The notes under the pieces are model-generated. The model saw nothing but the letters and a program-made list of their open reading frames with translations. It was not told the DNA's origin and did no database searches. A DNA stretch of 64,000 nucleotides from Mustelus asterias (lineage: Eukaryota). Made by a program: the position numbers and the translations under genes. The stretch's first letter is position 1, and every line of letters starts with the position of its first letter. The stretch lies in assembly GCF_964213995.1 (NCBI RefSeq), contig NC_135808.1, positions 12,090,001-12,154,000 of the forward strand. Reading direction: 5' to 3'. This document shows, one piece after another, positions 11,105-61,827 of the stretch.

Positions 11105-11250
11105 TGACTTTATAAAGTGAAAAAGGCTCCAGACACAATAACGGGGCTCAGTTTGATTGGATTACAGAATTCCTGGCACTGAGAGTGTCTCTGATCACGT
11201 GAAGTCAGATCCAGGAAGTGCAGCTCGGAACAAGAATTGAAAGTGAAAGA
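11105..11250 (+). promoter_or_regulatory. Proximal promoter module of TRIM copy B with ISRE/IRF-E
   Basis: AATTGAAAGTGAAAG at 11235-11249 (GAAANNGAAA), ETS CAGGAAGTG at 11212-11220, E-box TCACGTGA at 11195-11202, inverted CCAAT (GATTGG) near 11155, TTTATAAA near 11109. All lie 45-190 nt upstream of the ATG. Confidence 0.6.
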
Positions 11251-38745: not shown

Positions 38746-39677
38746 ATGATGTGGAGATGCCGGCGTTGGACTGGGGTAATTCCCAGTCCGGAAAGGACCG
38801 GAGCCTTCAACATGTCATTGATGAAGACGAACATCTCGCCAAGGCCATCCCCACTTCTTGCCTTCAAACAACCGCACAACCTCAAACAGACCATTGTCCT
38901 CAGCAAACTACCCAGCCTTCAGGAGAACAGTGACCATGGCACCACACAACCCTGCCACAGCAACCTCTGCAAGACGTGCTGGATCATCGACACGGATGCC
39001 ATCACCTCACGTGAGAACACCATCCACCAGGTACACGGTACCTACTCTTGCGACTCGGCCAACATTGTCTACCTGATATGCTGCAGGAAAGGATGTCCCG
39101 AGGCATGGTACATTGGGGAAACCATGCAAACACTACGACAATGGATGAATGAACACCGCTCGACAATCACCAGGCAAGACTGTTCTCTTCCTGTGGGGGA
39201 GCACTTCAGCAGTCACGGGCATTCAGCGTTGGATCTTCAGGTAAGCGTTCTCCAAGGCGGCCTTCACGACACACGACAGCGCAGAGTCGCTGAGCAGAAA
39301 CTGATAGCCAAGTTCCGCACACATGAGGACGGCCTAAACCGGGATGTTGGATTTATGTCACATTTTCAGTAACCCCCACAGCTTGCCTCCTGATCTTGCA
39401 GAATCTTACAAGCTGTTCTGTCTGGAGACAATACACATCTCTTTAACCTGTGTTTAATGTTCCCTCCACCCACATTATCTGTACCTTTAAGACCTGGCTG
39501 GCTGTAGAGATTTACATTCTAATTAGTATTCTGTAACTTGATTTCTGTGTCTCTGTGCACTGTTGGAGAACAGATTTTCACTCCATCTGACGAAGGAGCA
39601 GCGCTCCGAAAGCTAATGGTATTTGCTACCAAATAAACCTGTTGGACTTTAACCTGGTGTTGTGAGACTTCTTACTG
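38746..39677 (+). mobile_element. 5'-truncated Penelope-like element (GIY-YIG endonuclease + pseudo-LTR), with an inverted tail at its left end
   Basis: ORF with PCHSNLCKTC..NIVYLICC..WYIGET..EH..HF..EQKLI..GLN; 3' UTR carries a hammerhead motif and AATAAA. The empty site TGTGATCCAG is seen in paralogous spacers at ~7311 and ~23121. Confidence 0.92.
39583..39619 (+). ncRNA. Minimal type I hammerhead ribozyme motif (Penelope pLTR)
   Basis: CCAT-CTGACGA-A-GGAGC agc GCTCC-GAA-AGCT-A^ATGG: conserved core, 5-bp stem II, palindromic AGCU stem III, stem I CCAU/AUGG. Confidence 0.8.
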
Positions 39678-40479
39678 TCCAGAAGGAAGAACATGGAAGA
39701 GAGAATGTCCGGGGTGTGAGGGGTCCGCGATTTTGCTGGCTGCTTCTCCGAGGCAACGGGAAGTGTAGATGGAGCCACTGGACGGGAGGCTGGTGTGTGT
39801 GATGGACTGCGTGTGCGTGTAAGTGTGTGTGTAAGTGTCAGTGTGTTAGGGTGTTTGTGTCAGTGTGTGTGTCAGGGTCTCTGGGACTGAAGACTCACCT
39901 CAGGAGAGTTTGAAACAGAAACACTTTGATTCAGTAAGAGCTAACAAACAAATTACATTTATATAGCGCCTTTCATGCAGTGAAACATCCAGAGGGACTC
40001 GACAGGGATGTAAATCAGACAAAAATAATTGAGGTGAATGTGATCGTCCAGAGCCAATCTCCCCACAGCGAGATAATGTGCAGCAACTGAGGAATGAGAA
40101 GCTGGAACACAGGATTGTTCCTGTTCATCGAGTTAATGATAACCCCAAAGCCCAGATAGAAACAAATCCAATCTTTAACCGGGGATGGTGCCTGGATTGT
40201 GGAGGGAGATCAGTCCTGGGAGCCGGAGGAGAAACCTTCCTCACCGCTCTCCACTGATGTCCCAGTTTCAGCATCCCGGATCCCGGATTCTGATCCCAGT
40301 TTGTAGAGTAAAGGGGGGAAGGTGGAGATGGGGGTGGGACTTTGCAAAGTCAGAGGCGTCACATGTTATTTATTGAATAATGGGAGAGAGGGGAGTGAGG
40401 ATAAGGAAGGTCCCAGGGGGAAGCTGGATTTGGAAAGGTCTTGGGGATGACAGAGAGAAGGGAAACTAGAGAAAGATGT

Positions 40480-40768
40480 CAGGGGGATTGGGTCAGTGGG
40501 CTGGGGGGAGGGGGGATTGGGTCAGTGGGGCTGGGGGAGGGGGGATTGGGTCAGTGGGCTGTGGGGAGGGGGGATTGGGTCAGTGGGCTGGGGGAGGGGG
40601 GATTGGGTCAGGGGGCTGGGGGAGGGGGGATTGGGTCAGTGGGCTGGGGGAGGGGGGATTGGGTCAGGGGGCTGGGGGAGGGGGGATTGGGTCAGTGGGC
40701 TGGGGGAGGGGGGATTGGGTCAGGGGGCTGGGGGAGGGGGGATTGGGTCAGGGGGCTGGGGGAGGGGT
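40480..40768 (+). repeat. 28-bp G-rich minisatellite, ~10 units
   Basis: Same unit, upstream of copy D. Confidence 0.95.
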
Positions 40769-40907
40769 CAGGAGCAGAGACAGCTGGAAGAATGGCCTCA
40801 ATCTTAACTGAGAAATTGCTGAGTTTCTCACAAGTGTTGGGATTGAGGGGGGAGAGGGGGTTTTAAGGAGTATGTTTATAGAGGGGAAAGGGAGAATGTT
40901 CTAAAGC

Positions 40908-41052
40908 TGACTTTATAAAGTGAAAAAGGCTCCAGACACAATAACGGGGCTCAGTTTGATTGGATTACAGACTTCCTGCACTGAGAGTGTCTCTGATCAC
41001 GTGAAGTCAGATCCAGGAAGTGCAGCTCCGAACAAGAATTGAAAGTGAAAGA
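40908..41052 (+). promoter_or_regulatory. Proximal promoter module of TRIM copy D with ISRE
   Basis: Same module as copy B; GAAAGTGAAAG at 41041-41051. Confidence 0.6.
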
Positions 41053-41248
41053 GGTGGAACAGGGAAGAGAGACAGAGAGAGACTCTGAGCACTGGGATGG
41101 CATCTCCGGATCTCACCCAGGAACTAACCTGCCCCATCTGCCTGGAGATATTCATGATGTGGAGATGCCGGCGTTGGACTGGGGTAAACACAGTAAGAAG
41201 TCTCACAACACCAGGTTAAAGTCCAACAGGTTTATTTGGTAGCAAATA

Positions 41249-41285
41249 CCATAAGCTTTCGGAGTGCTGCCCCTTCGTCAGATGG
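41249..41285 (-). ncRNA. Minimal hammerhead ribozyme motif
   Basis: Reverse complement reads CCATCTGACGAAGGGGCAGCACTCCGAAAGCTTATGG; stem II is weakened. Confidence 0.7.
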
Positions 41286-41939
41286 AGTGGTTATCTGTTC
41301 TCAAACAGTGCAAACAGACACAGAAATCAAATTACAGAATACTTATTAGAATGCAAATCTCTACAGCCAGCCAGGTCTTAAATGTACAGACAATGTGGGT
41401 GGAGGGAGCATTCAACACAGGTTAAAGAGATGTGGATTGTCTCCAGATAGAACAGCCAGTGAAATTCTGCAAGCCAAGGAGGCAAGCTGTGGGGGCTACT
41501 GATAATGTGACATAAATCCAACATCCCGGTTTAGGCCGTCCTCATGTGTGCGGAACTTGGCTATCAGTTTCTGCTCAGCGACTCTGCGCTGTCGTGTGTA
41601 AGCGTTCTCCAAGGCGGCCTTCACGACACACGACAGCGCAGAGTCGCTGAGCAGAAACTGAGAGCCAAGTTCCGCACACATGAGGACGGCCTAAACCGGG
41701 ATGTTGGATTTATGTCACATTATCAGTAACCCCCACAGCTTGCCTCCTTGGCTTGCAGAATTTCACTGGCTGTTCTATCTGGAGACAATACACATCTCTT
41801 TAACCTGTGTTGAATGCTCCCTCCACCCACATTTTCGGTACATTTAAGACCTGGCTGGCTGTAGAGATTTGCATTCTAATCAGTATTCTGTAATTTGATT
41901 TCTGTGTCTGTTTGCACTGTTTGAGAACAGATAACCACT

Positions 41940-41976
41940 CCATCTGATGAAGGGGCAGCGCTCCGAAAGCTTATGG
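41940..41976 (+). ncRNA. Minimal hammerhead ribozyme motif
   Basis: CCATCTGATGAAGGGGCAGCGCTCCGAAAGCTTATGG; core intact, G.U pair in stem II. Confidence 0.78.
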
Positions 41977-43125
41977 TATTTGCTACCAAATAAACCTTTT
42001 GGACTTAAACCTGTTGTTGTGAGACTTCTTACTGGAGATATTCACCCAGCCCGTGTCTCTGGAATGTGAACATCACTTCTGCAGGAGCTGCATCTCCCAG
42101 AGTTGGGAGAAGGTCCCGGGAGATGTTTCCTGCCCCCAGTGTCGACAGGTCTTCACCCAGAGGAACATCAGGCCCGCTCGCACCCTGGCTAACATCGTGG
42201 AGAAGCTCAGAGTGCTGAAGGTGACACAGCCAGAGGAGGAGTTTTACTGTCAGGAACACGAGGAGAAGCTGAAACTGTTCTGTGAAGATGAAGAGAGAGC
42301 CATCTGTCTGGTGTGTGGCATGTCCAGAGCTCACAAGATGCACAGTGTGATCCCAATAAAGGAGGCAGCCCAGATATACAAGGTACTGGATCAGTGCCAC
42401 TGACACAGAAAGGGAGGAAAGAGGGACAGGGGAGTAAGTAACAGAGTGAGAGGGGGGCTTGTTGGATGAGGGAAGGGGGGCTGCAGGGAGTGGGGGAGGG
42501 ATGGGGAGAGGGAGGTGGAGAGGGTTGAGGGGAGGGGAAGGTTGATGGAGGAGGGGAATGGACCTGGAGGAGGATAATTGCAACAGGCGGAATTAACACA
42601 AAGTTTTTACTAAATTTCTTAATCCTTTCATCCCAAACATTGAGAGTGACCAATCCTGGGAATATCTCCTTCTCTCCTTCACCAGTGTGAGTGGATTTAA
42701 ACACAGCAAACTCCTCCAGAAGGTGCTGTTAGCGAGTGTTCCCTTTCACAACCCTCTTTGTGTCCTTTCTGTCTTCCAGAACAAGTTAGAAACATCATTG
42801 GGGACTCTGCAGAAGCAAATGGACCTCAGTCTTCACAGGAAAAGAGAAGGAGAGGATGGCATTTCACAGATGAAGGTAGGAGAGTGTCCTTTAGGCTTTG
42901 TGTAATGTTCCCTGTGTTTGTCATTGTGAGTGAGTGAGCTTCTCACACAGTGAGAGAGAGGGAGAGAGTTTTACTGAATAAAATGCTGGGGTCCAAATCA
43001 CATTGCAGCTGCTCCCTGAACTGGACTGTAAGGGAGCGTCTGTAAATTGCAAAATATGGCAACAATGTATAAAGGTCTAATTTTATCACAACACCCAATC
43101 TCAACGATTGACAAAATAAATCTCG

Positions 43126-43456
43126 TCAGTAACTCACTCCCTGATATCCATTATTCTATATATAAACCATCTGAACTCCTCGATTAGATTCCAGTCTGTA
43201 ACCCACTCCCACGTATCCATTATTCTATATATAAACCATCTGAACCCCTTGATTAGATTCCAATCTGTAACTCACTCCCAGGTTTCCATTATTCTACATG
43301 TAGATCATCTGAACCCCTCAATTAGATTCCAGTCTGGAACACAGACCCCATTCCATTATTCTAGATCGAAACTATCTGAACCTCTTGATGAGATTCCAGT
43401 CTGTAACTCGCTCCCAGGTATACATTATTCTACATGTAAATCATCTGAACCCCTCA
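43126..43456 (+). repeat. 69-bp satellite, 5' part (intron 2 of copy D)
   Basis: Same unit; interrupted at ~43456 by a CR1 element. Confidence 0.9.
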
Positions 43457-43490
43457 GAACCCCTCAAACCTATATAGGATAAGGGTAACT

Positions 43491-44510
43491 ATGAGTGATA
43501 GGCCAGTTCGGTGCTTCCGGTGTGGGATGTGGGAGTCCCTGGAAACACCTAGCCTCCCGGAGGACCACATTTGCGCCAGGTGCGTGGAACTGCAGCTCCT
43601 GAGGGACCGCGTCACGGAACTGGAGCTGCAGATTGCTGACCTTGGTCAAGTCAGGGAGAATGAGATAATAATTGACATGAGTTATAGGGAACTAGTTACA
43701 CCGGGGCATCAGGAGGAAGCCACGTGGGTCACAGTTAGGAGGAGTAAAGGTCAGAAGGGTAACGTACTAGAGAGTACTCCAGTGGCTGTCTCTCATAATA
43801 GGAAGGGCTCGGCGACAGGTGTGAGAGGGGAGGGGAGTGAGCAATTAGTGGAGGGGTCACCTGTGGTTGTCCCCCTCCAAAACAAGTATATTGTTTTGGA
43901 TAGTGTGGAGGAGGATGACTCTCCAGGGGTAAGCCACAGTGACCAGGTCACTGGCACAGAGTCAGGCTCTGTGTCCCAGAAAGGAAAGAGAGGGGTTAGG
44001 AGAGCAATAGTGGTGGGGGATGCGTCGGTTAGAGGCACGGACAGGCGATTCTGTGGGTGCGAACGGGACTCCAGGATGGTAGTCTGCCTACTTGGTGCTG
44101 GGGTAATGGATGTCTCCGAGCGGATAGGAGGCATCTTAAAAGGGGAAGATAAAGAAACGGATGTCATTGTACACATTGGTGCAAATGACGTAGATAGGAA
44201 GAGCAGGGGGATCCTACGAGAGCAATTCAGGGAGTTGGGAAATAGGCTAAAATGTAGGGCCTCCGGGGTGGCCATCTCTGGGCTGCTCCCAATGCCTCGT
44301 GCCAGTGAGGCTAAGAATAGGGAGATAGTACAATTGAACGCTTGGCTAAAGTACTGGTCCAGGAGGGAGGGCTTCATTTTCCTAGATCAATGGGAAGTTT
44401 TCAGGAGAGGATGGCACCTGTACAAGAAGGACGGGTCACAACTAAGTTGGAAGGGCACGAATATCCTGGCTGGGAGTTTTGCTAGTGCAGTTCGGGGGGG
44501 TTTAAACTAG
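43491..44510 (+). CDS. CR1 ORF1: zinc finger/leucine zipper + SGNH esterase-like domain
   Basis: CxxC..CxxC (CFRC, CARC) followed by heptad leucines; esterase blocks AIVVGDA, VIVHIGAND and DGSQL; ends GLN*. Confidence 0.88.
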   Translation: MSDRPVRCFRCGMWESLETPSLPEDHICARCVELQLLRDRVTELELQIADLGQVRENEIIIDMSYRELVTPGHQEEATWVTVRRSKGQKGNVLESTPVAVSHNRKGSATGVRGEGSEQLVEGSPVVVPLQNKYIVLDSVEEDDSPGVSHSDQVTGTESGSVSQKGKRGVRRAIVVGDASVRGTDRRFCGCERDSRMVVCLLGAGVMDVSERIGGILKGEDKETDVIVHIGANDVDRKSRGILREQFRELGNRLKCRASGVAISGLLPMPRASEAKNREIVQLNAWLKYWSRREGFIFLDQWEVFRRGWHLYKKDGSQLSWKGTNILAGSFASAVRGGLN

Positions 44511-47434
44511 TATGGCAGGGGGGTGGGGATCAAAATATTAGGTCTACAAGTGTAGAGGCTGGGGACGAGCTTGGGGCTGGGACAAGGCTGGCAAAGGAGA
44601 AGAGCACTCTGGGGGAGGATGACCTCACTGGGCCTAGAGGTCTGGAGTGCTTATACTTCAATGCAAGGAGCGTAGCAGGTAAGACAGACGAACTTAAGGC
44701 CTTAATGCTCACGAGGAATTTGGATGTGGTTGCGGTGACAGAGACTTGGTTGAAAGAGGGACAGGACTGGCAGCTGAATATTCCGGGGTACAAGTGTTTT
44801 AGGCGAGACAGAGGAGGGGCCAAAAGAGGTGGGGGAGTAGCAGTATTAGTTGGAGAGCATATTACAGCGGTGCAGAGGGAGGACAATTCAGAGGGGTCGT
44901 GTAACAAGTCACTTTGGGTGGAGTTTAGAAACAGGAAGGGCGCAGTCACTATGTTGGGGGTATACTACAGGCCCCCCAACAGCCTAAGGGAAGTGAAAGA
45001 ACGGATATATCAGGAGATACTGGATAGGTGCAGGAAATATAGGGTTGTTGTCGTGGGAGACTTCAATTTCCCTGGTATAGACTGGAAATCGCTGAGAGCT
45101 GGGATTCTGAATGGGGAGGAATTTGTAAAATGCGTACAGGAGGGTTCTTTGGAACAATATGTAGATAGCCCGACTAGAGAGGGAGCTATTCTGGACCTGG
45201 TACTGGGGAATGAGCCCGGTCAGGTCTTCAAAGTTTCGGTAGGGGAACATGTAGCAAATAGTGACCACAATTCTGTTAGCTTTAGGATAGTGATGGAAAA
45301 GGATGAGTGGTGTCCCAAGGGTAAGGTGTTGGATTGGGGGAAGGCTCACTTTAGTGGGATTAGGCAGAAATTGGCAGCTCTTGATTGGGAGAGGCTGTTT
45401 GAGGGTAAATCCACATCTGGCATGTGGGAGTCTTTTAAGGAACAGTTGTTAGGGCTGCAGGACAGGCATGTGCCTGTAAAAAAGAAGGATAGGAAGGGTA
45501 GGATTCGAGAACCGTGGATAACCAGGGAAATTGAGGGACTGGTCAAAAAGAAAAGAGAGGCGTATGTTAGGTCCAGGCAGCTAAAAACGGAGGGAGCTCT
45601 GGAGGAGTACAAAGAAAGTAGGAAAGAACTCAAACGGGGAATTAGAAGGGCAAAAATGGGTCACGAAATGTCCTTGGCAGACAGGATTAAGGAGAATCCC
45701 AAGGCATTTTATTCATACGTTACGAACAAAAGGGTTGTCAGGGAAAAAATCGGACCTCTCAGGGACAAAAGTGGGGAATTATGCTTGGAGCCCAATGAAG
45801 TAGGGGAGATCCTAAATGAATACTTTGCGTCGGTATTCACAAAGGAGAGGGATGTGTTGACTGGGAGTGTCTCGGAGGGGAGTGTTGGACTGTTGGAGAA
45901 AATCTCCATTACAAGAGAGGAAGTGCTAGGTTTGTTAGAGAATATAAAGACTGACAAATCCCCAGGGCCTGATGGAATCTATCCAAGGCTGCTCAGGGAG
46001 ACGAGAAATGAAATCTCTGGGCCTCTGACGCAAATCTTTGTCTTGTCACTGGACGCAGGTGAGGTCCCAGAGGATTGGAGGATAGCTAATGTGGTCCCGT
46101 TATTTAAGAAGGGTAGGAAGGATAACCCGGGTAATTATAGGCTGGTGAGCTTGACGTCCGTGGTGGGGAAGTTGTTGGAGAAGATTCTTAGAGATAGGAT
46201 GTATGCGCATTTAGAAAGGAATAAACTCATTAACGATAGTCAGCATGGTTTTGTGAGAGGGAGGTCATGCCTCACTAACCTGGTGGAGTTTTTTGAAGAA
46301 GTGACCAGAATGGTTGACGAGGGAAGGGCCGTGGATGTCGTCTATATGGACTTTAGTAAAGCGTTTGACAAAGTCCCTCATGGTAGGCTGGTGAAAAAGG
46401 TTGGATCTCATGGGATAAAGGGGGAGGTGGCTAGATGGGTGGAGAAGTGGCTTGGTCACAGAAGACAGAGGGTGGTAGTGGAAGGGTCTTTTTCCGGCTG
46501 GAGGCCTGTGACTAGTGGTGTTCCGCAGGGCTCTGTATTGGGAGCTCTGCTGTTTGTGATTTATAGAAACGATCTGGAAGAAGGTGTAACTGGGGTGATC
46601 AGTAAGTTTGCAGATGACACAAAATTGGCAGGACTTGCAGATAGTGAGGAGCATTGTCAGAAGCTACAGAAGGATATAGATAGGCTGGAAATTTGGGCAA
46701 AGAAATGGCAGATGGAGTTCAATCCTGATAAATGCGAAGTGATGCATTTTGGTAGAAATAATGTAGGGAGGAGCTATACGATAAATGGCAGAACCATAAA
46801 GGGTGTAGATACGCAGAGGGACCTGGATGTGCAAGTCCACAGATCCTTGAAGGTGACGTCACAGGTGGAGAAGGTGGTGAAGAAGGCATATGGCATGCTT
46901 GCCTTTATAGGATGGGGCATAGAGTATAAAAGTTGGGGTCTGATATTGCAGATGTATAGAACGTTGGTTCGGCCGCATTTGGAATACTGCGTCCAGTTCT
47001 GGTCGCCACACTACCAGAAGGACGTGGAGGCTTTGGAGAGAGTACAGAGGAGGTTTACCAGGATGTTGCCTGGTATGGAGGGGCTTAGTTATGAGGAGAG
47101 ATTGGGTAAACTGGGGTTGTTCTCCCTGGAAAGACGGAGGATGAGGGGAGACTTAATAGAGGTGTATAAAATTATGAAAGGCATAGATAGGGTGAACGGT
47201 GGGAAGCTTTTCCCCAGGTCGGTGGCGACGTTCACGAGGGGTCATAGGTTCAAGGTGAAGGGGGGGAGGTTTAACACAGATATCAGAAGGACATATTTTA
47301 CACAGAGGGTGGTGGGTGCCTGGAATGCGCTGCCAGGCAAGGTGGTGGAGGCGGACACACTGGGAACGTTTAAGATTTATCTAGACAGCCACATGAACGG
47401 AATGGGAATGGAGGGAGACAAAAGAATGGTCTAG
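44486..47434 (+). CDS. CR1 ORF2: AP endonuclease + reverse transcriptase
   Basis: The frame is open from 44486 (after TAG 44483-85) and the first ATG is only at 44705. APE motifs CLYFNARS, ETW, YRPP, GDFN and SDH; RT motifs QHGF, DFSKAFDKV, PQGSVLG and FADD. Confidence 0.93.
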   Translation, partial: CSSGGFKLVWQGGGDQNIRSTSVEAGDELGAGTRLAKEKSTLGEDDLTGPRGLECLYFNARSVAGKTDELKALMLTRNLDVVAVTETWLKEGQDWQLNIPGYKCFRRDRGGAKRGGGVAVLVGEHITAVQREDNSEGSCNKSLWVEFRNRKGAVTMLGVYYRPPNSLREVKERIYQEILDRCRKYRVVVVGDFNFPGIDWKSLRAGILNGEEFVKCVQEGSLEQYVDSPTREGAILDLVLGNEPGQVFKVSVGEHVANSDHNSVSFRIVMEKDEWCPKGKVLDWGKAHFSGIRQKLAALDWERLFEGKSTSGMWESFKEQLLGLQDRHVPVKKKDRKGRIREPWITREIEGLVKKKREAYVRSRQLKTEGALEEYKESRKELKRGIRRAKMGHEMSLADRIKENPKAFYSYVTNKRVVREKIGPLRDKSGELCLEPNEVGEILNEYFASVFTKERDVLTGSVSEGSVGLLEKISITREEVLGLLENIKTDKSPGPDGIYPRLLRETRNEISGPLTQIFVLSLDAGEVPEDWRIANVVPLFKKGRKDNPGNYRLVSLTSVVGKLLEKILRDRMYAHLERNKLINDSQHGFVRGRSCLTNLVEFFEEVTRMVDEGRAVDVVYMDFSKAFDKVPHGRLVKKVGSHGIKGEVARWVEKWLGHRRQRVVVEGSFSGWRPVTSGVPQGSVLGALLFVIYRNDLEEGVTGVISKFADDTKLAGLADSEEHCQKLQKDIDRLEIWAKKWQMEFNPDKCEVMHFGRNNVGRSYTINGRTIKGVDTQRDLDVQVHRSLKVTSQVEKVVKKAYGMLAFIGWGIEYKSWGLILQMYRTLVRPHLEYCVQFWSPHYQKDVEALERVQRRFTRMLPGMEGLSYEERLGKLGLFSLERRRMRGDLIEVYKIMKGIDRVNGGKLFPRSVATFTRGHRFKVKGGRFNTDIRRTYFTQRVVGAWNALPGKVVEADTLGTFKIYLDSHMNGMGMEGDKRMV

Positions 47435-47510
47435 TTTGGACCAGGGGGTGGCACGGGCTTGGAGGGCCGAAGGGCCTGTTCCTGTGCTGTATTGTTCTTT
47501 GTTCTTTGTT

Positions 47511-49895
47511 CTCAATTAGATTCCAGTCTGTAACTCACTCCCAGGGATCCATTCTTCTCTATATAAACCATCAGAACCCCTCGATTAGATTCCAGTCTGT
47601 AACCCACTTCCAGGTATCCATTATTCTGTATGTAAACCATCCGAACCCCTCGGTTAGATTCTAGTCTGTAATTAACTCCGAGATATCCACTATTCTATAT
47701 ATAACCATCTGAACCCCTCGATTAGATTCCAGTCAGTAACACAGACCTCATGCCATTATTCCAGATATAAACCATCTGAACCCCTCGATTAGATTCCAGT
47801 CTGTAATTCATTCCCAGGTATCCATTATTCTATATATAAACCATCTGAACGTCTTGATTTGATTCCAGTCTGTCACCCATTCCCAGGGATCCATTCTTTT
47901 ATATGTCAAACTTCCGAACCTCTCGATTATATTCCAGGCTGCAACTCACTCCCAAGTATCTATTATTCTGTCTATAATCCATTTGAACCCCCGATTAGAT
48001 TCCAGTCTGTAACTCACTCCCAGGTATCCATTATTCTATATATAAACCATCTGAACCCCTTGATTAGATTCCAGTCTGTAACTCACTCCCAGGTATCCAT
48101 TATTCTATATATAAACCATCTGAACCTCTTGATTAGATTCCAGTCTGTAACTCACTCCCAGGTATCCATTATTCTATATATAAACCATCTGAACCCCTCG
48201 ATTAGATTCCAGTCTGTAACTCACTCCCAGGTATCCATTATTCTATATATAAACCATCTGAATCTCTTGATTAGATTCCAGTCTGTAACTCACTCCCAGG
48301 TATCCATTATTCTATATATAAACCATCTGAACCCCTTGATTAGATTCCAGTCTGTAACTCACTCCCAGGTATCCATTATTCTATATATAAACCATCTGAA
48401 CCCCTCGATTAGATTCCAGTCTGTAACTCACTCCCAGGTATCCATTATTCTATATATAAACCATCTGAACCTCTTGATTAGATTCCAGTCTGTAACTCAC
48501 TCCCAGGTATCCATTATTCTATATATAAACCATCTGAACCCCTTGATTAGATTCCAGTCTGTAACTCACTCCCAGGTATCCATTATTCTATATATAAACC
48601 ATCTGAACCTCTTGATTAGATTCCAGTCTGTAACTCACTCCCAGCTATCCATTATTCTATATATAAACCATCTGAACCTCTTGATTAGATTCCAGTCTGT
48701 AACTCACTCCCAGGTATCCATTATTCTATATATAAACCATCTGAACCCCTTGATTAGATTCCAGTCTGTAACTCACTCCCAGGTATCCATTATTCTATAT
48801 ATAAACCATCTGAACCTCTTGATTAGATTCCAGTCTGTAACTCACTCCCAGGTATCCATTATTCTATATATAAACCATCTGAACCCCTTGATTAGATTCC
48901 AGTCTGTAACTCACTCCCAGGTATCCATTATTCTACATAGAAACTATCTGAACCCCTCAACTGAATTCCAGTCTGTAACTCATATAAATCATAGAAGAAA
49001 TCATAGAAACCCTACAGTACAGAAAGAGGCCATTCGGCCCATTGAGTCTGCACCGACCACAATCCCACCCAGGCCCTACCCCCATATCTACCCACTAATC
49101 CCTCCACCCTACACATCTCAGGACACTAAGGGCAATTTTCAGCATGGCCAATCAACCTAACCCGCACATCTTTGGACTGTGGGAGGAAACCGGGGCACCC
49201 GGAGGAAACCCACGCAGACACGAGGAGAATGTGCAAACTCCACACAGACAGTGACCCAAGCCGGGAATCGAACCCAGCTCCCTGGAGATGTGAAGCAGCA
49301 GTACTAACCACTGTGCTACCGTGCCGCCCTCATGCCGTACTCATTCCCAAGTATCCATTATTCTGCGTATAAACCATCTGAACCCCTCGATTAGATTCCA
49401 GTCTGCAACTCACTCCCAGGTCTCCATTATTCTATATATAAACCATCTGAACCCCTTGATTAGATTCCAATCTGTAACTCACTCCCAGGTATCCATTATT
49501 CCACATACAGATCATCTGAACCCCGCAATTAGATTCCAGTCTGTAACTCACTCCCATGGATCCATTATTCTATATATAAACCATCTGGACCCCTCGATTA
49601 GATTTCAATTTATAACTCACTCCCAGGTATATATTATTCTACATATAAATCGTCTGAACCCCTCAATTAGATTGCAGTCTGTAACTCATTCCCAGGTATC
49701 CATTATTCTATATATAAACCATCCAAACCCCTCGATTAGATTCCAGTCTGTAACTCACTCCCAGGTATCCATTATTCTATAAATAAACCATTTGAACCCT
49801 TGATTAGATTCCAGTCTGTAATGAACTACCAGGTAAACATTGATCCATGTATAAATTTGAACCCCTCGATTAGTTTTCTCTCAGTAACTCACTCC
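47511..49895 (+). repeat. 69-bp satellite, 3' part, ~30 units (intron 2 of copy D), interrupted by a SINE
   Basis: Same unit; highly homogeneous block at ~47990-48930. Confidence 0.95.
48984..49329 (-). mobile_element. Full-length HE1-type SINE inside the 69-bp satellite
   Basis: Reverse complement shows head, core and tail. Confidence 0.92.
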
Positions 49896-51482
49896 TTGCT
49901 CTCTTATATTTTATCAGAAACCATTGGTATAATTTTACTGTGTTCAGCTGTAACTCACTCCCACACGCCGAATATTCCATCAAACAGCTGATCGTGCAGT
50001 GAATGGGCAGAGGCCAGGGACACTGGGATTACAGACATTGTTTATTCCGCTCTGTATTCAATCTGTTCCAGACTGAAGTTGAGAGACTGAGAAATGAAAT
50101 CCGCAGTGAATTTGAAAAGATGCACAAGTTCCTGTTTGAGAAGGAAGAGCTGATGAAAACAGAGTTGGAGCGAAAAAGCAATAAAATATTTGAGGAAATG
50201 GAGAACAATTTAAAGAAAACCTTGGATGAAATGTCTTCTGTTGAAGGAGCAATAAGAGATCTTCAATCCAGGCTGGAGATACAAGAGGCTCCAGAGTTCC
50301 TCAAGGTACAAAACCTCTTTGCCTTGTCCAGGAGAATATTGGGGGACTGAGGGCTGACACACTGACCTTTAACCTCTGGGCCTGGGTTTGGCCTCAGTCT
50401 GATTGGGTGGATGATTATCTCTTGCTGCTGTCAGTGAGGGTGCAATGGGAGATGGGGTGAGGTAATCTCAGTGTGATTCCTATACACAGTGTAACCACAG
50501 CACTGAGTGATGTTTGGATTCAGAGAGAACTGTGCTGGTAGCTGGAGGGATTTACACTGGGGCAGATGGGGCTGTTCTGAGGATGGGGTTAAGGGGCATT
50601 GTTGAAGTGTAGAAGGTAGATCTTTATTGTGCTGCGGGTTCTGCTGTTCCTGACCCTGCAAACGCTTGATTCAACTGAAGACACAGCCAGCAATGGGGTT
50701 GGGATTGAAATCGAGGATTCAGAGAAGACACAAATTAGAGGAGTGCAGATGTCTCCGAGCGTTGTGGAGCTGGAGGAGATCACAGACACAGAGTGAGGCC
50801 AGGGAGGAATTTGAAAACGAGGTTGAGAATGTTTTCAATGAATACGTTGTTGAGCTGGGAGCCAGTGGAGGTCACCAAGCACCGGGGTGATGGGGGCTAC
50901 GATCAGATAGATAAGAATGTAAGCTGCTGAGGACAGAACATCCAGCTGGACATGGGCACCGGGAGGGGTGGTTGGGTGATCAGGAATATTTGGGAATAGA
51001 ATAGAGGGACACAAGAGATGGGTCACATGGAGATAATGAGCTCAGAGTGGGAATGAAAGGAAAAGCTATTTCCTCGGTGTCTCCATTCTGTTCCCCCCTC
51101 ATAATTTCTCCGAGATTTACAGCAACAGATCTTTAATCTGAGCTCAGGAACAGAGGAATTAGGAGCAGGAGTCGGCAATTCAGCCCTTCGATCCTGCTCT
51201 GCCATCCAATCAGATCATGGCTGATCTCTCCCTGGTCCCAAATCCACCTCCCCACCTGTTCCCCATATCCCTTTAACCCGTTTTTTAAATCAGAAATATA
51301 TCCATCTCCTTGAAACTATTTAATGATTCCGACTCCACCGCGCCACGGGGCAGCGAGTTACACAGATTTACCCCCCTCGGCGAGAAGTCGTTCCTCCTCA
51401 TCTCAGTTTTAAATCTACCGCCTCTCAACCTATACCTGTGACCCCTTGTTCTAATCAGACTCAATAATATCCATTCTGTTTC

Positions 51483-55400: not shown

Positions 55401-57106
55401 AATACAATGAATTGTGGTAACTGTGCCCAGTCCCGAACAATTCATTGTAAAGCCATTTCCATTTGCTCCATTTAATTAAGGTTTTATTTGCAGACTGGAC
55501 TGTGCAGATTGTTGATTCAGAGAATGTGCAGAATGAATTAGGAATAAGAATGTCAGAATAGGTTCTGGAGGAGGACATATCAACATCAACTCCACTTTCC
55601 CACCCTATCCCTTCACTCCCTTTGTAGACAAGAAGATATCGATCTCTGGGTTGAATATTCTCACTGACAGCTCACCGAGGTAGAGAATCCCAAAGATTCA
55701 CAACTCTCTCTGAGTGAAGACATTTCTCCTCGTCTCAGTCTTAAATGGCCGACCCCTTATCCTGATTCTGTGACTCCGAGTTCTAGAGCAGTCTCAGCAT
55801 CAACCCTGTCAGGATCCCGAACAATTGTGTCTGTCTCAATAAGATCACCCCTTATTCTTCTAAACTTTAAAGATTACAGATCCATTGTACTCACTCTCTC
55901 CTCATATAGAGTCAGAACAACCCTTTCACCCCAAGAATCTATTCAGTGAACCTTCATTGCAGCCTCGAAGGTAAGTCTAGGTTTCCTTAGGTAAGGCGAC
56001 TAAAACTGTGCCCAGTCCCCCAACTGTGACCACACCCAGTCGCTGTTTCATTGCAGCAAGACTTATACTCTTATACATCAGCCCCATTGTAATAAAGGCG
56101 AACATAACATTTACCGTCCTAATTGTTCACTGTATCTGCTTGTTAACTTTCTCTGCTTCACCCCAAATCCCTCTGACTCCCAACATTTACAAGTCTCCCA
56201 TCTTTCAAATAAATTATCCTGATATCCTCATCGAGTCATAGAGGTTTACAGCATGGAAACAGGCCCTTCGGCCCAACCTGTCCATGCCGCCCAGTTTTTA
56301 CCACTAAGCGAGTCCCAATTGCCCCCATTTGGCCCATATCCCTCTATACACATCTTATCCATGTAACTGTCCAAAAGCTTTTTAAAAGACAAATTGTACC
56401 ACCTCTACTACTGCCTCTGGCAGCTTGTTCCAGACACTCACCACCCTCTGAGTGAGAACAACTGCCCTTCTGGACACTTTTTTGTATCTCTCCCCTCACC
56501 TTAAACCTTTGCCCTCTCGTTTTAGACTCCCCTAAAATTGAGAAAAGACGTTGACTATCTAACTGATCTATGCCCTCATTATTTTATAGACCTCTATAAG
56601 GTCACCCCTCAGCCTCCTGGGCTCCAGGGAAACAAGTCCCAGTCTATCCAGCCTCTCCTAATAACTCAAACCATCAAGTCAGAGCAAAGAGGATAATTGT
56701 ACAAAAGAGATCGGGGCAGTGAGATGCTCCAGTCTGTCCCACCGTTCAGTTGGATCATCGCTGATCTGTATCGAAACCACATTTACTGACTTTGGTTTTA
56801 TAGTGCCGGAGCCTTTGTGTGAAGAAGCTTTTCCTGAAATCCCCCCCTTGAACTCCCTCATCCTGATGGGCACTTTTCCCATGTTGGCAGGAAGGGCTTT
56901 ACATGGAGCAGCCCCGCCATCTGCTGGCAGTGCTGTGAATGGCCACTTGCTCTGTCAGCTGCCTTTAAACTGGAGGCTGGATTTAGTGAGGTCATCAATA
57001 TAAGATAGTCATTAACAAATCCAATCGGGAATTCGAGACCAACATCTTTACCCAGAGAGTGGTTAGAATGAGGAACTCCCTCCCATTCAAGGAGAACAGG
57101 AATGGG

Positions 57107-58124
57107 GAACAAAGAACAATACAGCACAGGAACAGGCCCTTCGGCCCTCCAAGCCCGCGCCACCCCCTGGTCCAAACGAGACCATTCTTTTGTATCCCTC
57201 CATTCCCACTCCGTTCATGTGACTATCTAGATAAGTCTTAAACATTCCCAGTGTGTCCGCTTCCACCACCTTGCCCGGCAGCGCATTCCAGGCGCATTCC
57301 AGGCGGCCACCACCCTCTGTGTAAAATACATTCTTCTGATATCCGTGTTAAACCTCCCCCCCGCCCCCCCCTCACCTTGAACCTATGACCCCTCGTGAAC
57401 GTCACCACCGACCTGGGAAAAAGCTTCCCACCGTTCACTCTATCTATGCCTTTCATAATTTTATACGCCTCTATTAGGTCACCCCTCATCCTCCGTCTTT
57501 CCAGTGAGAACAACCCCAGTTTACCCAATCTCTCCTCATAACTAAGCCCTTCCATACCAGACAACATCCTGGTAAACCTCCTCTGCACTCTCTCTAAAGC
57601 CCTTCCCTCGTCAACCATTCTAGTCACTTCTTCAAAAAACTCCACCAGGTTAGTGAGGCATGACCTCCCTCTCACAAAGCCATGCTGACTATCGTGAATG
57701 AGTTTATTCCTTTCTAAATGCGCATACATCCTATCTCTGAGAATCCTCTCCAACAACTTCCCTACCACGGACGTCAAGCTCACCGGCCTATAATTTCCCG
57801 AGTTATCCTTCCTACCCTTCTTAAATAACGGGACCACATTAGCTATCCTCCAATCCTCTGGGACCTCACCTGTGTCCAGTGACAAGACAAAGATTTGCGT
57901 CAGAGGCCCAGCGATTTCATCTCTCGTCTCCCTGAGCAGCCTTGGATAGATTCCATCAGGCCCTGTCAGTCTTTATATTTCCTAAAAAACCTAACACTTC
58001 CTCCCTTGTAATGGAGATTTTCTCGAACGGGTCAACACTCCCCTCCGAGACACTCCCAGTCAACACATCCCTCTCCTTTGTGAGTACCGACGCAAAGTAT
58101 TCATTTAGGATCTCCCCTACTTCT
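57107..58124 (-). mobile_element. 5'-truncated, internally deleted CR1 (same family as 43466-47510)
   Basis: Minus strand reads EVGEILNEYFASV..PEDWRIANVVPLFKKG..VDEGRA|LERVQRRF.., with the tail at 57107. Confidence 0.92.
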
Positions 58125-58345
58125 GGAACTAAGAATTTACTGATGATCATGAAACCATTGTCGGAAAAACTCATCTGGTTCACGAATGTCCTTCAGGGAA
58201 GGAAATCTGCCGTCCTTGCCTGGTCTGGCCTACATGTGACTCCAGAGCCACAGCAATGTGGTTGACTCTCTATGGCTCTCCAAGTGCAACTATGGACGGG
58301 CAATAAATGCTGGCCAGCCAGCGACGCCCATGTACCATGAATGAA
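58125..58345 (+). mobile_element. SINE 3' part sharing its tail with the LINE at 19310-19555
   Basis: Non-coding body ending GGGCAATAAATGCTGGCCAGCCAGCGACGCCCA..ATGAATGAA. Confidence 0.65.
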
Positions 58346-58365
58346 AATAAGAAGCAGTTTGGTCT

Positions 58366-58606
58366 ATTGGGCCTGCACAGCAATCCCACCCAGGCCCTAT
58401 CCCAAAAACTCACATATCCCCCTGACTAAGGGGAAATTTAGCATAGCCAGTCCACCTAACCCACACAGCTTTGGAGTGTGGGAGGAAACCGGAGCACGTG
58501 GAGGAAATCCATACAGACACGGGGAGAACGTGCAAACTCCACCCGCGGCTGGAATTGAACCCGGGTCCCTGGTGAGGCAGCAGGGATAACCATTGTGCCA
58601 CCATGC
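58366..58606 (-). mobile_element. HE1-type SINE (decayed)
   Basis: Reverse complement shows V-core and head. Confidence 0.8.
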
Positions 58607-58786
58607 CACTGCTGCAGACCTGGCCCAGCAAAATCAAATCATTTGTGCCATTGTGGTTTCTCAAAGTGTGGGGTGGTCTGCCAACACCCAGCAGGGCAGC
58701 AACAGGACGGCTGGAGGCCAACAAGGTGAAAGAAGCCGGCTTGAGACCCGTGTCCAAAGCTGGTCTCCAACAGTTTGCTATCACAG

Positions 58787-59238
58787 AATTGTTACAGCAC
58801 AGTAGGAGGCCATTCGGCCCATTGTGTCTGCGCCAGTCTCTCCAAATGTGCATCATGACTTAGTGCCATTCCCCTGCCTTTTCCCCGTACCTCTGCGCAT
58901 TCAATAATCATCCAATGCCCTCTTGAATGTCTCGATTGAACCTGCCTCCACCACACTTCCAGGCAGAATATTCCCGACCCCAAACCACTCGCTGTGTGAA
59001 AAAGTTTCCTCTCACATCACGTTTACTTGTTTTACAAATAACTTTCAATCTGTGCCCTCGTGTTCTTGATCCTTTTATGGGAGGGAACAGTTTCTCCCGA
59101 CCTGCTCTGTCCCAGCCCCCTCGTCATTTTGAATATTTCCCTCTCATCTCCTCTCCACCTTCTCTCCAAGGAGAAAAGTCCTGACCTCTCCAATCAATCC
59201 TCATAACTGACGTTTCTGACCCCTTGAACCATTCTGCA
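58787..59238 (-). mobile_element. Decayed CR1 3' fragment
   Basis: CR1 tail GGCCATTCGGCCCAT and antisense RT C-terminal sequence. Confidence 0.75.
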
Positions 59239-59512
59239 GACAGAGAGGAACAGGCCGAATATGGGGTCTTCCAGTTTGGGCCAGATATCAACTCAATAAA
59301 GAGCAAATCTAACCTTCACAGTCATTCTGATGAGACCTTGCTTGGTGGAGGGTTGAAAGTGTGTGGAATGAGACTGGTAGGTGGCTCACATGGTCATTTG
59401 CCCCACTGAAATGCAGAGCCCAAAATGGAATTGGGTCTGGTTGTATAATATCAGAGATAGCGTAGCATGGACAATGACAACTTCTGCCGACTCCCTGTGA
59501 TGCTAGCTTCAC

Positions 59513-60345
59513 AGTAAGAAGTCTCACAACACCAGGTTAAAGTCCAACAGGTTTATTTGGTAGTTACAGAATACTGACTAGAATGCGAATCCCTACAGCC
59601 AGCCAGGTCTTAAAGGTACAGACAATGTGGGTGGAGGAAGCATTAAGCACAGGTTAAAGAGATGTGTATTGTCTCCAGACAGGACAGCCCGCAAGTCCAG
59701 GAGGCAAGCTGTGGGGGTTACTGATAATGTGAAATAAACCCAACATCCCGGTTTAGGCCGTCCTCATGTGTGCGGAACCTGGCTATCAGTTTCTGCTCAG
59801 CGACTCTGCGCTGTCGTGTGTCGTGAAGGCCGCCTTGGTTAGCAGTCGCGGGCATTCAGCCTCGGATCTTCAGGTAAGCGTTCTCCAAGGCGGCCTTCAC
59901 GACACACGACAGCGCAGAGTCGCTGAGCAGAAACTGATAGCCAAGTTCCGCACACATGAGGACGGCCCAAAACCGGGATGTTGGATTTATGTCACATTAT
60001 CAGTAACCCCCACAGCTTGCCCCCTGGACTTGCAGAATCTCACTAGCTGTTCTGTCTGGAGACAATACACATCTCTTTAACCTGTGTTTAATGCTCCCTC
60101 CACCCACATTGTCTGTACCTTTAAGACCTGGCTGGTTGTAGGGATTCGCATTCTAATCAGTATTCTGTAACATGATTTTGTGTCTCTGTGCACTGTTTGA
60201 GAGCACATTTCCACTCCATCTGACGAAGGAGCAGCGCTCCGAAAGCTTATGGTATTTGCTACCAAATAAACCTGTTGGACTTCAACCTGGTGTTGTGAGA
60301 CTTCTTACTGTGTTCACCCCAGTCCAACGCCGGCATCTCCACATC
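59513..60345. mobile_element. Penelope-like element, inverted pseudo-LTR pair
   Basis: Arms ~59511-59838 and ~59885-60312; 13-bp TSD ATGCTAGCTTCAC at 59500-59512 and 60346-60358; a related uninterrupted site is at ~62750-62790. Confidence 0.92.
60216..60252 (+). ncRNA. Minimal hammerhead ribozyme motif
   Basis: CCATCTGACGAAGGAGCAGCGCTCCGAAAGCTTATGG; core intact. Confidence 0.8.
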
Positions 60346-60754
60346 ATGCTAGCTTCACCCAGGGCAGGGCATGAATCATAGAATCCCTACAGCGCAGAAT
60401 GAGACCATTCAGCCCCCATTTACCCTGTTAATCCCCCTAACCTACACATGTTGGCCCACTAAGGGGCAATTTAGAATGGCCAATCCAATTTAGCATGGCC
60501 AATCCCCCTAATCTACACATGTTGGCCCACTAAGGGGCAATTTAGAATGGCCAAGATTGAAAGTTTCTGCTCTGAAGCAGAATGTGAAGCAGCGATCTTG
60601 TGACTCAGAGAGGTGAATTCCACTCAGGTCCAGGGCAGGAGGACTGAAAAGATAAAAATTGAATGGATACTGAGCAAGTGAAATGGGAGGGAAGAATAGA
60701 ATGGATGGCAGAGGGCAGCAATGAGACAATTGGAGAAGTTTTCCGAGTTGGAAA

Positions 60755-60948
60755 TGAAGGAGGGCGTATTTAAACTCGTCCCTGCCTATGAGGGCAGTGT
60801 GATTATACTTCCTTTGCGGAATCCGCGCCCTTTCCAAGCGGAAAGGCTTTTTCTATTCGTTATTCGCGCTGGATAATGTTCGCCACCAATTTGTGGAGTT
60901 TTCTCCAACTCGCCGTGTGTGTTGAACGAGCGGCGGCAGCAGGTAAGG
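60755..60948 (+). promoter_or_regulatory. Possible promoter / non-coding first exon of a downstream gene
   Basis: Local CpG enrichment outside repeats, TATTTAAA near 60766, ETS-like motifs and a strong donor CAG|GTAAGG after 60942. Confidence 0.35.
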
Positions 60949-61146
60949 CGGGGAGGGCGGAGAGGGGACTTTTTGTTGCTGTTGTGGGAATATCTCTGCC
61001 ATGGCCGGGAAGTGAATACCCCGAAGAGACCCTGGAATCGGACAAGCAGTGAAGTGGGAATGTCTGTGGGATTGGGGTGGGGGAAGGGGCTGCAGGGTGT
61101 CTGAACAAGGGGAGCAGTGGCCAGCACCTCTGAGAAAATTCAGTAG

Positions 61147-61480
61147 AAATCATAGAAACCCTACAGTACAGAAAGAGGCCATTCGGCCCATTGAGTCTGC
61201 ACCGACCACAATCCCACCCAGGCCCTACCCCCATATCCCTACATATTTTACCCACTAATCCACGCATCTCAGGACACTAAGGGGCAAATGTAGCACGGCC
61301 AATCAACCTAACCCGCACATCTTTGGACTGTGGGAGGAAACCGGAGCACCCGGAGGAAACCCACGCAGACACGAGGTGGATGTGTAAACTCCACACAGAC
61401 AGTGACCCAAGCTGGGAATCGAACCCAGGTCCCTGGAGCTGTGAGGCAGCAGTGCTAACCACTGTGCTACCGTGCCACCC
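61147..61480 (-). mobile_element. Full-length HE1-type SINE
   Basis: Reverse complement shows head, core and tail. Confidence 0.92.
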
Positions 61481-61560
61481 TCCTTATAGCAGTACTATTC
61501 CCACAGTACTGCTCCTTATCCCTCCATCTCACATCCACTCCCCCCCCCCCCCCCTACCCC

Positions 61561-61827
61561 CAGGGCATATAAAGACACAATACTTACAGCTAACCAAGTT
61601 TTAAGTCTTCAAGTATTTCGCATTCCAACCATTATTCATGCAAATTGAGTTTGTGTCTTTATATGCCCTGTTTGTGAACAGAATTCCCACTCACCTGAAG
61701 AAGGGGCTTGGGGCTCCAAAAGCTTGTGTGGCTTTTGCTACCAAATAAACCTGTTGGACTTTAACCTGGTGTTGTTAAACTTCTTACTGTGTTTACCCCA
61801 GTCCAACGCCAGCATCTCCACATCATG
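61561..61827 (+). mobile_element. Penelope pseudo-LTR fragment (second subfamily)
   Basis: Same 3' end (CCAAATAAACCTGTTGGACTTTAACCTGGTGTTG..CATCTCCACATCATG); perfect 20-bp inverted repeat at 61561-61580/61651-61670. Confidence 0.8.
61692..61728 (+). ncRNA. Degenerate hammerhead motif (catalytic G12 changed to A)
   Basis: CAC-CTGAAGA-A-GGGGC ttggg GCTCC-AAA-AGCT-T^GTG; stem I covaries (CAC/GTG). Confidence 0.6.

What the first reader, a model, noticed from the sequence alone, without database searches (positions are those of the whole stretch)
39583..61728. Five minimal hammerhead ribozyme motifs in Penelope pseudo-LTRs
Seen: motifs at 39583(+), 41249(-), 41940(+), 60216(+) and 61692(+) follow the pattern stem I - CUGANGA - A - stem II - GAA-AGCU-H - stem I'. 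N7 varies (C/U/A), stem I covaries (CCAU/AUGG vs CAC/GUG), and stem II keeps its pairing with different loops. Stem III is only the palindrome AGCU, so a monomer cannot fold. Known: Penelope-like elements carry minimal type I hammerheads that are proposed to cleave as dimers. Inference: these are self-cleaving RNA modules invisible to ORF annotation; the 61692 copy is probably dead (G12A).
Basis: partly seen in the sequence, partly recalled or inferred. Interest (0 to 1): 0.72.

Follow-up and report, generated by a model that had tools for sequence, protein, structure and literature searches.

The report
Shark Penelope hammerheads with cut-site footprint
The five motifs are real copies of the tiny "hammerhead" RNA already known from Penelope-like jumping genes and are likely passive leftovers among an estimated 150,000 in this shark-like genome; the one notable extra is that a few percent of the family's copies start right at the predicted cut, which may record the RNA cutting itself in living germ cells.

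Summary
All five motifs are present at the stated places, beyond chance (0 in 100 shuffles). Four have an intact core; 61692 has G12A at a CpG. They match the published minimal hammerheads of Penelope-like elements (PMC4209133) and sit in the 3' ends of four truncated insertions of one Neptune-type family. A full RT + GIY-YIG tandem copy exists elsewhere (L033). A blind 1.6 Mb sample gives about 147,000 (108,000-191,000) intact-looking motifs genome-wide. The core shows no change on internal tree branches (0 against 6.4 expected, P 0.005), although a per-position test was not significant. No two window motifs form a direct tandem from one insertion, and 41940 is predicted to be zipped up by its inverted arm. 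Two extras: most copies (108 of 138) read through the cut site, yet 5' ends are 2.5-3.5 times enriched at the predicted cut in two subfamilies; and 47 of 52 inverted pairs carry exactly one 'tail', usually within a roughly 12-nt duplication. Cleavage was not tested. The scan has noted this family, and the footprint, on other DNA. Verdict: new member of a known kind.

The parts
39583..39619 (+). Minimal type I hammerhead, intact core (C3 39587, predicted cut after 39615), subfamily F2; free of a complementary arm
41249..41285 (-). Minimal hammerhead, intact core (C3 41281, predicted cut after 41253), 4-bp stem II; tail-bearing arm of an inverted pair
41940..41976 (+). Minimal hammerhead, intact core (C3 41944, predicted cut after 41972); tail-less arm, predicted fully paired with the upstream inverted arm
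60216..60252 (+). Minimal hammerhead, intact core (C3 60220, predicted cut after 60248); predicted free because the partner arm lost this region
61692..61728 (+). Minimal hammerhead of subfamily F1 with G12A (61718) at a CpG
38746..39678 (+). Insertion 1: inverted tail-only arm (38746-38779) plus a 5'-truncated + arm with the endonuclease end of the ORF (stop at 39370-39372) and a tail-less 3' end; no clear target duplication
41154..42034 (.). Insertion 2: inverted pair, - arm 41154-41599 with tail, + arm 41600-42034 without tail
41142..41154 (+). Left copy of the 13-nt duplicated target (9-nt core plus bases shared with the element ends); right copy at 42032-42044
   Evidence: empty paralogous sites at about 11340 and 25777
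41097..42382 (+). First coding exon (RING, B-box) of a TRIM paralog, interrupted after codon 19 by insertion 2, which brings an in-frame stop
59510..60348 (.). Insertion 3: inverted pair, - arm 59510-59838 without tail and with the ribozyme region deleted (junction 59563/59564), + arm 59841-60348 with tail; 13-nt duplicated target (59500-59512, 60346-60358)
61611..61826 (+). Insertion 4: 5'-truncated F1 copy with tail

Best explanation
These are five copies of the minimal type I hammerhead motif carried at the 3' end (pseudo-LTR) of a Neptune-type Penelope-like retrotransposon with an estimated 150,000 intact-looking copies in this genome; in full tandem elements two motifs are predicted to pair through their AGCU palindromes and likely cut the RNA only slowly, and the five truncated copies here are likely passive passengers. 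SHOWN: the motif and its place about 215 nt after the ORF stop; its position 63-65 nt upstream of one fixed 3' end and about 100 nt upstream of the other (the tail end, at the ORF's ATG); a full tandem element with two motifs 3.0 kb apart; core conservation on internal branches; most copies reading through the cut site; an excess of 5' ends at the cut site. INFERRED: (1) a tandem transcript folds a strand-swapped double hammerhead, probably helped by the element's own protein, as for anole PAc; (2) reverse transcription starts at two internal sites downstream of the ribozyme, one on each nicked target strand about 12 nt apart, and the two cDNAs are joined at their truncated ends, giving inverted pairs with one tail; (3) most templates are uncut or re-joined, while a few percent are cut, so their cDNA runs off at the cut and leaves copies that begin there.
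For: Descriptor and shuffles. Full element L033: inverted arm, truncated upstream copy whose tail ends at the ORF's ATG, RT (PF00078, E 3.6e-11 on sister copy L035), CX4CxxC linker, GIY-YIG (PF01541, E 4.6e-4, just below the curated cut-off). Copy number: 27,162 exact matches of one core pattern, reversed control 0; 157,190 of a 34-nt downstream word. Blind sample of 160 x 10 kb: 156 ends, 138 scorable, 75 with the core, 64 passing the strict descriptor, giving about 147,000 (bootstrap 108,000-191,000); calibration 71 seen against 68 expected. All 64 have the extra A and 61 of 64 the palindrome. Tree of 78 long copies chosen without regard to the ribozyme: 0 core changes on internal branches against 6.4 expected from base-matched flank columns (P 0.005). 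Pooled mismatch in 120 copies: core 1.1% against flank 3.4% at non-CpG sites. Stem pairs in 53 distinct motifs: 91.4% paired against 29-52% when slid; 4 of 9 pairs with two-sided changes. One tail in 47 of 52 scorable inverted pairs (P 1e-9); longest shared flank word of 12-14 nt in 25 of 44. Cut-site footprint: the nested-pattern loss is 9.0% across the cut against 4.7% and 3.1% on either side. Corrected 5'-end rates are 3.6% at the cut against 1.5% and 1.4% in F2/F4 and 5.6% against 1.6% in F1. 27 of 30 and 20 of 20 inspected cut-site loci lack the ribozyme upstream.
Against: No cleavage and no RNA ends were observed here. The per-position test of shared variants was not significant (core 2 of 38, flank 74 of 841, P 0.77). 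Terminal branches also show fewer core changes than expected (12 against 26), so part of the signal may be lower mutability or unresolved small lineages. The 53 motifs were picked by the core pattern and are related by descent; its count of pairs with two-sided changes was reached by 31 of 500 shuffles. The double-hammerhead fold is not the predicted ground state. Only 7 same-strand neighbours within 4 kb against 53 divergent pairs, so dimers in cis are rare. In the blind sample only 4 of 138 arms start within 3 nt of the cut, and a larger pile lies 30-40 nt upstream (21 of 138). The footprint has only two control positions in F2/F4 and one in F1, the control loci were not inspected, and an RT pause at the folded core would give a similar edge. 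For PAc, ribozyme mutants did not impair insertion and no RNA-seq reads ended at the cut.
Confidence: 0.7

Rival explanations
1. The motif is kept mainly as a folded RNA element (protein binding, or placing the two internal RT start sites) and seldom or never cuts in vivo; the excess of 5' ends at +1 is an RT pause at the folded core.
For: 108 of 138 arms read through the site. The active dimer is not the predicted ground state. PAc ribozyme mutants insert normally, and no reads end at the cut. Naiad elements thrive without canonical hammerheads (PMC8557442 passages).
Against: What stays fixed across lineages are the catalytic positions (0 internal changes in 11 core columns), while stems and loops change freely. 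N17 is U, A or C, never G, in 64 strict motifs, though the descriptor required that. The 5'-end excess follows the cut in two subfamilies whose distance to the 3' end differs by 2 nt.
Confidence: 0.17
2. Cleavage is an obligatory step: tandem transcripts are cut to 3.0-kb units and ligated into circles, and RT then starts 63 or 100 nt downstream of the sealed junction and reads through it (the model proposed in PMC4209133). Copies starting at +1 come from units that were cut but not sealed.
For: In L033 the two motifs delimit a 3.0-kb unit whose 5' end would hold both RT start sites, so a cut linear unit could give only 63- or 100-nt cDNAs. That fits both the read-through majority and the +1 minority. 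The core is conserved.
Against: Uncut and re-sealed templates give the same DNA, so nothing here favours circles. PAc used unprocessed RNA as its main substrate in vitro.
Confidence: 0.1
3. The host has adopted these copies to cut or regulate transcripts of the TRIM gene cluster in which they lie.
For: Four motifs lie on the same strand as the TRIM genes; 39583 is 1.5 kb upstream of a TRIM start codon.
Against: Five motifs in 64 kb is near the genome average of 40-47 per Mb. One insertion breaks a TRIM exon, one motif is G12A, one arm has lost the motif, and paralogous TRIM units have empty sites.
Confidence: 0.02
4. The motifs are chance matches to a short, relaxed pattern.
For: The motif is only 37 nt, Rfam gives no hammerhead hit, and the five are two sequence types.
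Against: 0 in 100 shuffles. The motif has a fixed place in the element, with features not demanded by the core pattern: the extra A in 64 of 64 and the palindrome in 61 of 64. It agrees with the published consensus.
Confidence: 0.01

Closest known systems
Minimal hammerheads (min-HHR) in pLTRs of metazoan Penelope-like elements (Cervera and De la Pena 2014, PMC4209133; read parts 1-2 of 4: abstract, results, discussion; supplement file 2 searched, file 1 not searchable)
   Same: Type I, 4-bp stem I, unpaired base between 9 and 10.1, G10.1-C11.1, palindromic 15.2/16.2, no stem III loop; mostly single motifs in truncated copies, some as close pairs on opposite strands, few in 3-kb tandems; reported in fish Xena, Poseidon and Neptune elements.
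   Different: Stem II is 4-6 bp rather than the 7-8 bp of the Schistosoma type. The estimated count (about 147,000) is far above the 4,000 (coelacanth) and 9,000 (Xenopus tropicalis) reported there, by different methods. No shark is named in the text read or in the searched supplement.
PAc, Poseidon element of Anolis carolinensis (Frangieh et al. 2024, PMC11167929; read parts 1-2 of 4)
   Same: Two internal RT start sites that bound the 30-40-nt tail, downstream of the hammerhead; both target strands nicked; ribozyme in the pLTR.
   Different: In PAc the ORF starts inside the ribozyme; here the ATG lies about 100 nt downstream, at the tail end. This element has the CX4CxxC linker of Neptune/Nematis. 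PAc RNA-seq showed no ends at the cut, whereas here DNA 5' ends are enriched there.
Neptune-clade EN+ Penelope-like elements with partial tandems, inverted 5'-truncated copy and one-sided tail (Craig et al. 2021, PMC8557442; passages read, one supplement searched)
   Same: Single ORF RT + linker + GIY-YIG, partial tandem, inverted truncated arm, tail at only one end.
   Different: That paper states the one-sided tail qualitatively; here it is counted (47 of 52) and comes with a modal 12-nt duplication. Clade placement here rests on the linker motif, not on a tree with named references.
Non-LTR retrozymes as non-autonomous PLE derivatives (bioRxiv 10.64898/2026.07.22.740005; part 1 of 5 and passages read)
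   Same: Type I hammerheads related to PLE pLTRs; one chondrichthyan genome is included in that survey.
   Different: Retrozymes are head-to-tail tandem repeats of ribozyme units; the window's copies are dispersed, mostly inverted, 3' stumps of the coding element.

Membership tests
Minimal type I hammerhead (min-HHR) of PLEs | Core CUGANGA ... GAAA ... UH closed by stems I and II | tested here: met
   4 of 5 window motifs; the fifth is G12A
Minimal type I hammerhead (min-HHR) of PLEs | Unpaired base between 9 and 10.1, and G10.1-C11.1 pair | tested here: met
   5 of 5 in the window; extra A in 64 of 64 strict motifs
Minimal type I hammerhead (min-HHR) of PLEs | No stem III loop; palindromic 15.1-16.1 segment | tested here: met
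   5 of 5 in the window; 61 of 64 in the blind sample
Minimal type I hammerhead (min-HHR) of PLEs | Conserved core with compensatory changes in stems | tested here: met
   Tree test P 0.005 and pair counts; per-position test not significant
Minimal type I hammerhead (min-HHR) of PLEs | Self-cleavage as dimer, not as monomer | not testable with these tools
   Folding allows the swapped dimer but does not favour it; the genomic 5'-end excess is indirect
EN+ Penelope-like element | One ORF with RT and C-terminal GIY-YIG endonuclease | tested here: met
   L033 and L035: PF00078 and PF01541, the latter below the curated cut-off; the inspected copies carry frameshifts; relatives with both domains in one protein
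EN+ Penelope-like element | Partial tandem forming pLTRs, inverted truncated arm, 30-40-nt tail | tested here: met
   L033; 37-nt tail on one arm in 47 of 52 pairs
Neptune clade | CX2-5CxxC linker between RT and EN (shared with Nematis and Naiad) | tested here: met
   CX4CxxC in the window ORF and in L033-L035; definition
Neptune clade | RT phylogeny with named Neptune references | not tested
   No named reference PLE proteins were returned by the tools (one search names are 'uncharacterized')
Non-LTR retrozyme | Head-to-tail tandem units, each with an intact hammerhead | tested here: not met
   No such array in the window; 7 same-strand neighbours within 4 kb among 156 ends

The most novel reading that the evidence does not exclude
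The genome holds a fossil record of this ribozyme cutting in the germ line: thousands of insertions, in at least two subfamilies, begin at the predicted scissile bond because their cDNA ran off a self-cleaved RNA. Together with the one-tail rule and the 12-nt duplication, this points to a two-ended, dimer-driven target-primed insertion in which each nicked strand primes at a different internal site.
Probability: 0.5. Interest if true: 0.62.

Novelty: new member of a known kind. Interest (0 to 1): 0.36.

Why it matters
The catch itself is of a described kind. The open question is whether PLE hammerheads cut in vivo and what for: PMC8557442 calls their function unclear, and PMC11167929 found cutting dispensable in vitro and no RNA ends at the site. 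A family with over 100,000 copies lets that be tested from DNA alone by a base-by-base map of 5' ends, and it supplies natural variants (G12A, several stem types) for assays. The count also makes this among the most abundant ribozyme-like motifs in the papers read here. One insertion knocked out a TRIM immune-gene paralog.

Tried and rejected
Rfam search at E<=1: no hammerhead; its five microRNA-like hits are below gathering score, and four of them fall on the fold-back junctions. Pfam on the window's endonuclease fragment: no family; the domain call rests on the sister copy L035. Sequencing runs: no RNA holder listed, contigs only; laying four runs showed no place where molecules begin or end and cannot show ends, so it was not used as evidence. 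A first look in the blind sample gave no step at the cut (4 of 138 within 3 nt); only genome-wide counts had the power to show the excess. The per-position conservation test was not significant. The uniform '243 aa open frame' comes from a frameshift shared with my query, not from a separate EN gene. Retrozyme array: rejected. Luense et al. 2017 on dimer cleavage is not held; I saw only its citation and a summary in PMC6765202 (passages). Literature searches for a shark report or a cut-site footprint: 0 papers; one search gave two whale-shark genome papers (listing only); two searches gave only papers cited here or unrelated; supplements searched name no shark. Subscription papers, Repbase, supplement file 1 of PMC4209133 and the bioRxiv supplements could not be seen and may already list a shark element.
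Full report
OBSERVATION. C3 lies at 39587(+), 41281(-), 41944(+), 60220(+) and 61695(+); the predicted cuts fall after 39615, 41253, 41972, 60248 and 61725. Four have an intact core; the fifth has A for G12. All have one extra A after A9, a G10.1-C11.1 pair, and only the palindrome AGCU where stem III should be. In 100 dinucleotide shuffles no locus had a palindromic stem III with a stem II of 4 bp or more. Rfam does not detect them. The five are two sequence types: four F2 and one F1. F1-F4 are my labels.

SETTING. The window is G000:C8:12090001-12154000 of a 3.68-Gb genome. The element's closest named protein relatives are from sharks. The motifs lie in four insertions inside a TRIM gene cluster. 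Insertion 1 (38746-39678) is a tail-only inverted arm plus an arm with the endonuclease end. Insertion 2 (41154-42034) is an inverted pair that breaks a TRIM RING exon after codon 19 and brings a stop; its target is duplicated over 13 nt relative to empty paralogs. Insertion 3 (59510-60348) is an inverted pair whose minus arm has lost the ribozyme. Insertion 4 (61611-61826) is a lone F1 stump. No two motifs are a direct tandem from one insertion.

THE ELEMENT. The endonuclease fragment has 108,445 first-look candidates in the genome. Among 20 fetched hits, L033 holds the complete textbook arrangement: an inverted arm, a 5'-truncated copy whose 37-nt tail runs into the ORF's ATG, the ORF, and a second end 3.0 kb downstream. 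The sister copy L035 scores PF00078 (E 3.6e-11) and PF01541 (E 4.6e-4, below the curated cut-off). The linker has CX4CxxC, which PMC8557442 gives for Neptune and Nematis (passages). I did not place it on a tree with named references.

ABUNDANCE. One exact core pattern has 27,162 matches, and a 34-nt downstream word has 157,190; reversed controls gave 0. In 160 blind 10-kb stretches I found 156 element ends. Of these, 138 had the 5' part of the anchor and enough flank (18 dropped); 75 had the core and 64 passed the strict descriptor. That gives about 147,000 motifs (bootstrap 108,000-191,000). The sample recovers 71 exact words against 68 expected. PMC4209133 reports about 4,000 in coelacanth and 9,000 in Xenopus tropicalis. 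Five motifs in 64 kb is thus ordinary here.

SELECTION. In 120 copies not chosen by ribozyme sequence, non-CpG mismatch to the subfamily majority is 1.1% in the core and 3.4% in the flank; at CpG sites it is 3.6% and 10.0%. These pooled sites are not independent. A per-position test was not significant (2 of 38 against 74 of 841). On a tree of 78 long copies the 11 core columns have 0 changes on internal branches against 6.4 expected (P 0.005); terminal changes were also fewer (12 against 26). Among 53 distinct motifs, 91.4% of stem cells pair, against 29-52% for slid controls, and pair 2.1-1.1 swaps C-G for U-A in 14 sequences. These motifs were picked by the core pattern and are related. G12 lies in a CpG and is A in 4 of 119 copies, so 61692 is ordinary decay. 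I read this as selection on the masters and drift in the copies.

FOLDING. Short monomers form stems I and II, but stem III cannot close. With 40-nt flanks stem I is mostly lost, except in 60216 (P about 0.6). The strand-swapped double hammerhead is possible, with two 4-bp stems I and a 4-bp stem III, but lies about 3 kcal/mol above two monomers and about 10 above the best duplex (no tertiary terms). In the fold of insertion 2 the 41940 motif is wholly paired with its inverted arm; in insertion 3 the 60216 motif stays free. This fits the low activity reported for such motifs and the protein dependence of anole PAc.

HOW COPIES WERE MADE. In the blind sample 53 neighbouring ends form divergent inverted pairs and only 7 are same-strand neighbours. 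Of 52 scorable pairs, 47 have exactly one tail, 4 none and 1 two (P 1e-9 against independence). In 44 one-tail pairs with enough flank (3 dropped), the longest word shared by the two flanks is 12 nt in 17 and 12-14 nt in 25, counting bases shared with the element ends. PMC11167929 shows two internal RT start sites that bound the tail, and nicks on both strands. I infer that each nicked strand primes at one of the two sites and that the two truncated cDNAs are joined.

IS THE RNA CUT? Both 3' ends lie downstream of the cut (63-65 nt and about 100 nt), so any copy that holds the whole ribozyme came from uncut or re-sealed RNA. That is most copies: 108 of 138 start more than 20 nt upstream, and only 4 start within 3 nt of the cut. 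An earlier scan note on this genome (e1-9207248) claimed a few percent start at the cut, so I tested that genome-wide. Nested exact patterns in F2/F4 give 39,031, 37,194, 33,847 and 32,812 matches: losses of 4.7%, 9.0% across the cut, and 3.1%. Patterns demanding two mismatches just upstream give 761 at the cut, 214 three bases downstream and 261 five bases upstream. After correction for chance letters these are 3.6%, 1.5% and 1.4%. In F1, whose spacer is 2 nt longer, the counts are 1,587 and 459 of 50,385, or 5.6% and 1.6%. Of the first 30 F2/F4 cut-site loci, 27 have no ribozyme upstream, 3 are local indels, and two pairs of the 30 are not independent. All 20 F1 loci inspected lack it. Each test window covers two adjacent bases, the controls are few and were not inspected, and an RT pause at the folded core is not excluded. 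No raw RNA reads were available.

COMPARISON AND VERDICT. The motif meets every sequence criterion of the published min-HHR. The element meets those of an EN+ PLE with a Neptune-type linker. It is not a retrozyme array. Cleavage could not be tested. My searches found no paper on shark PLE hammerheads or on a cut-site footprint, but a 2026 preprint surveys one chondrichthyan, Luense et al. 2017 could not be read, and 261 earlier scan notes hold the same search words. The finding is correct and of a known kind. Its interest lies in the scale and in the 2.5-3.5-fold excess of 5' ends at the predicted cut, which makes the question of in vivo cleavage testable. Interest 0.36.

Noticed in passing
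window 3768-55184: Tandem cluster of TRIM genes (RING, B-box, PRY-SPRY) in units of roughly 13-16 kb. G-rich minisatellites lie just upstream of the first exons at 11247, 25684 and 41097.
   Followed up: partly
window 41097-42382: The RING exon of one TRIM paralog is broken by the 881-nt inverted Penelope insertion; the paralogs at about 11340 and 25777 have the empty site. Whether the insertion is polymorphic was not tested.
   Followed up: partly
window 43449-47434: CR1/L2-type LINE (class name recalled) with an esterase-like ORF1 (PF13472 below cut-off) and a 982-aa stop-to-stop endonuclease-RT frame; looks young.
   Followed up: no
window 47510-49960 and 12434-13551: Long tandem arrays of a unit of about 69 nt (offsets), with a long spurious open frame.
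   Followed up: no
blind sample, e.g. L101, L106, L128, L169: 21 of 138 arms begin 30-40 nt upstream of the cut, at the 5' edge of the ribozyme. Many are short palindromic insertions of a variant whose spacer after the cut is 7 nt shorter. This could mark a transcript start or a pause; part may be an alignment edge.
   Followed up: partly
window 39617-39631 and equivalents: A 5-bp hairpin right after the cut site competes with the 3' strand of stem I in the predicted folds. F1 and F3 can form one in a different register, and the short-spacer variant lacks it. Possibly an off-switch; not tested for covariation.
   Followed up: no
G000 matches: Many minimal fold-back insertions join their two arms exactly on the AAGCTT palindrome of stem III, so junctions favour self-complementary words.
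   Followed up: partly
L033:4290-4330: The tail ends at the ORF's ATG, so one RT start site coincides with the start codon.
   Followed up: yes
L033-L035 near 6530: Many copies share a frameshift in a C-rich tract between RT and the linker; these were selected by my frameshifted query, so the frequency is unknown.
   Followed up: no
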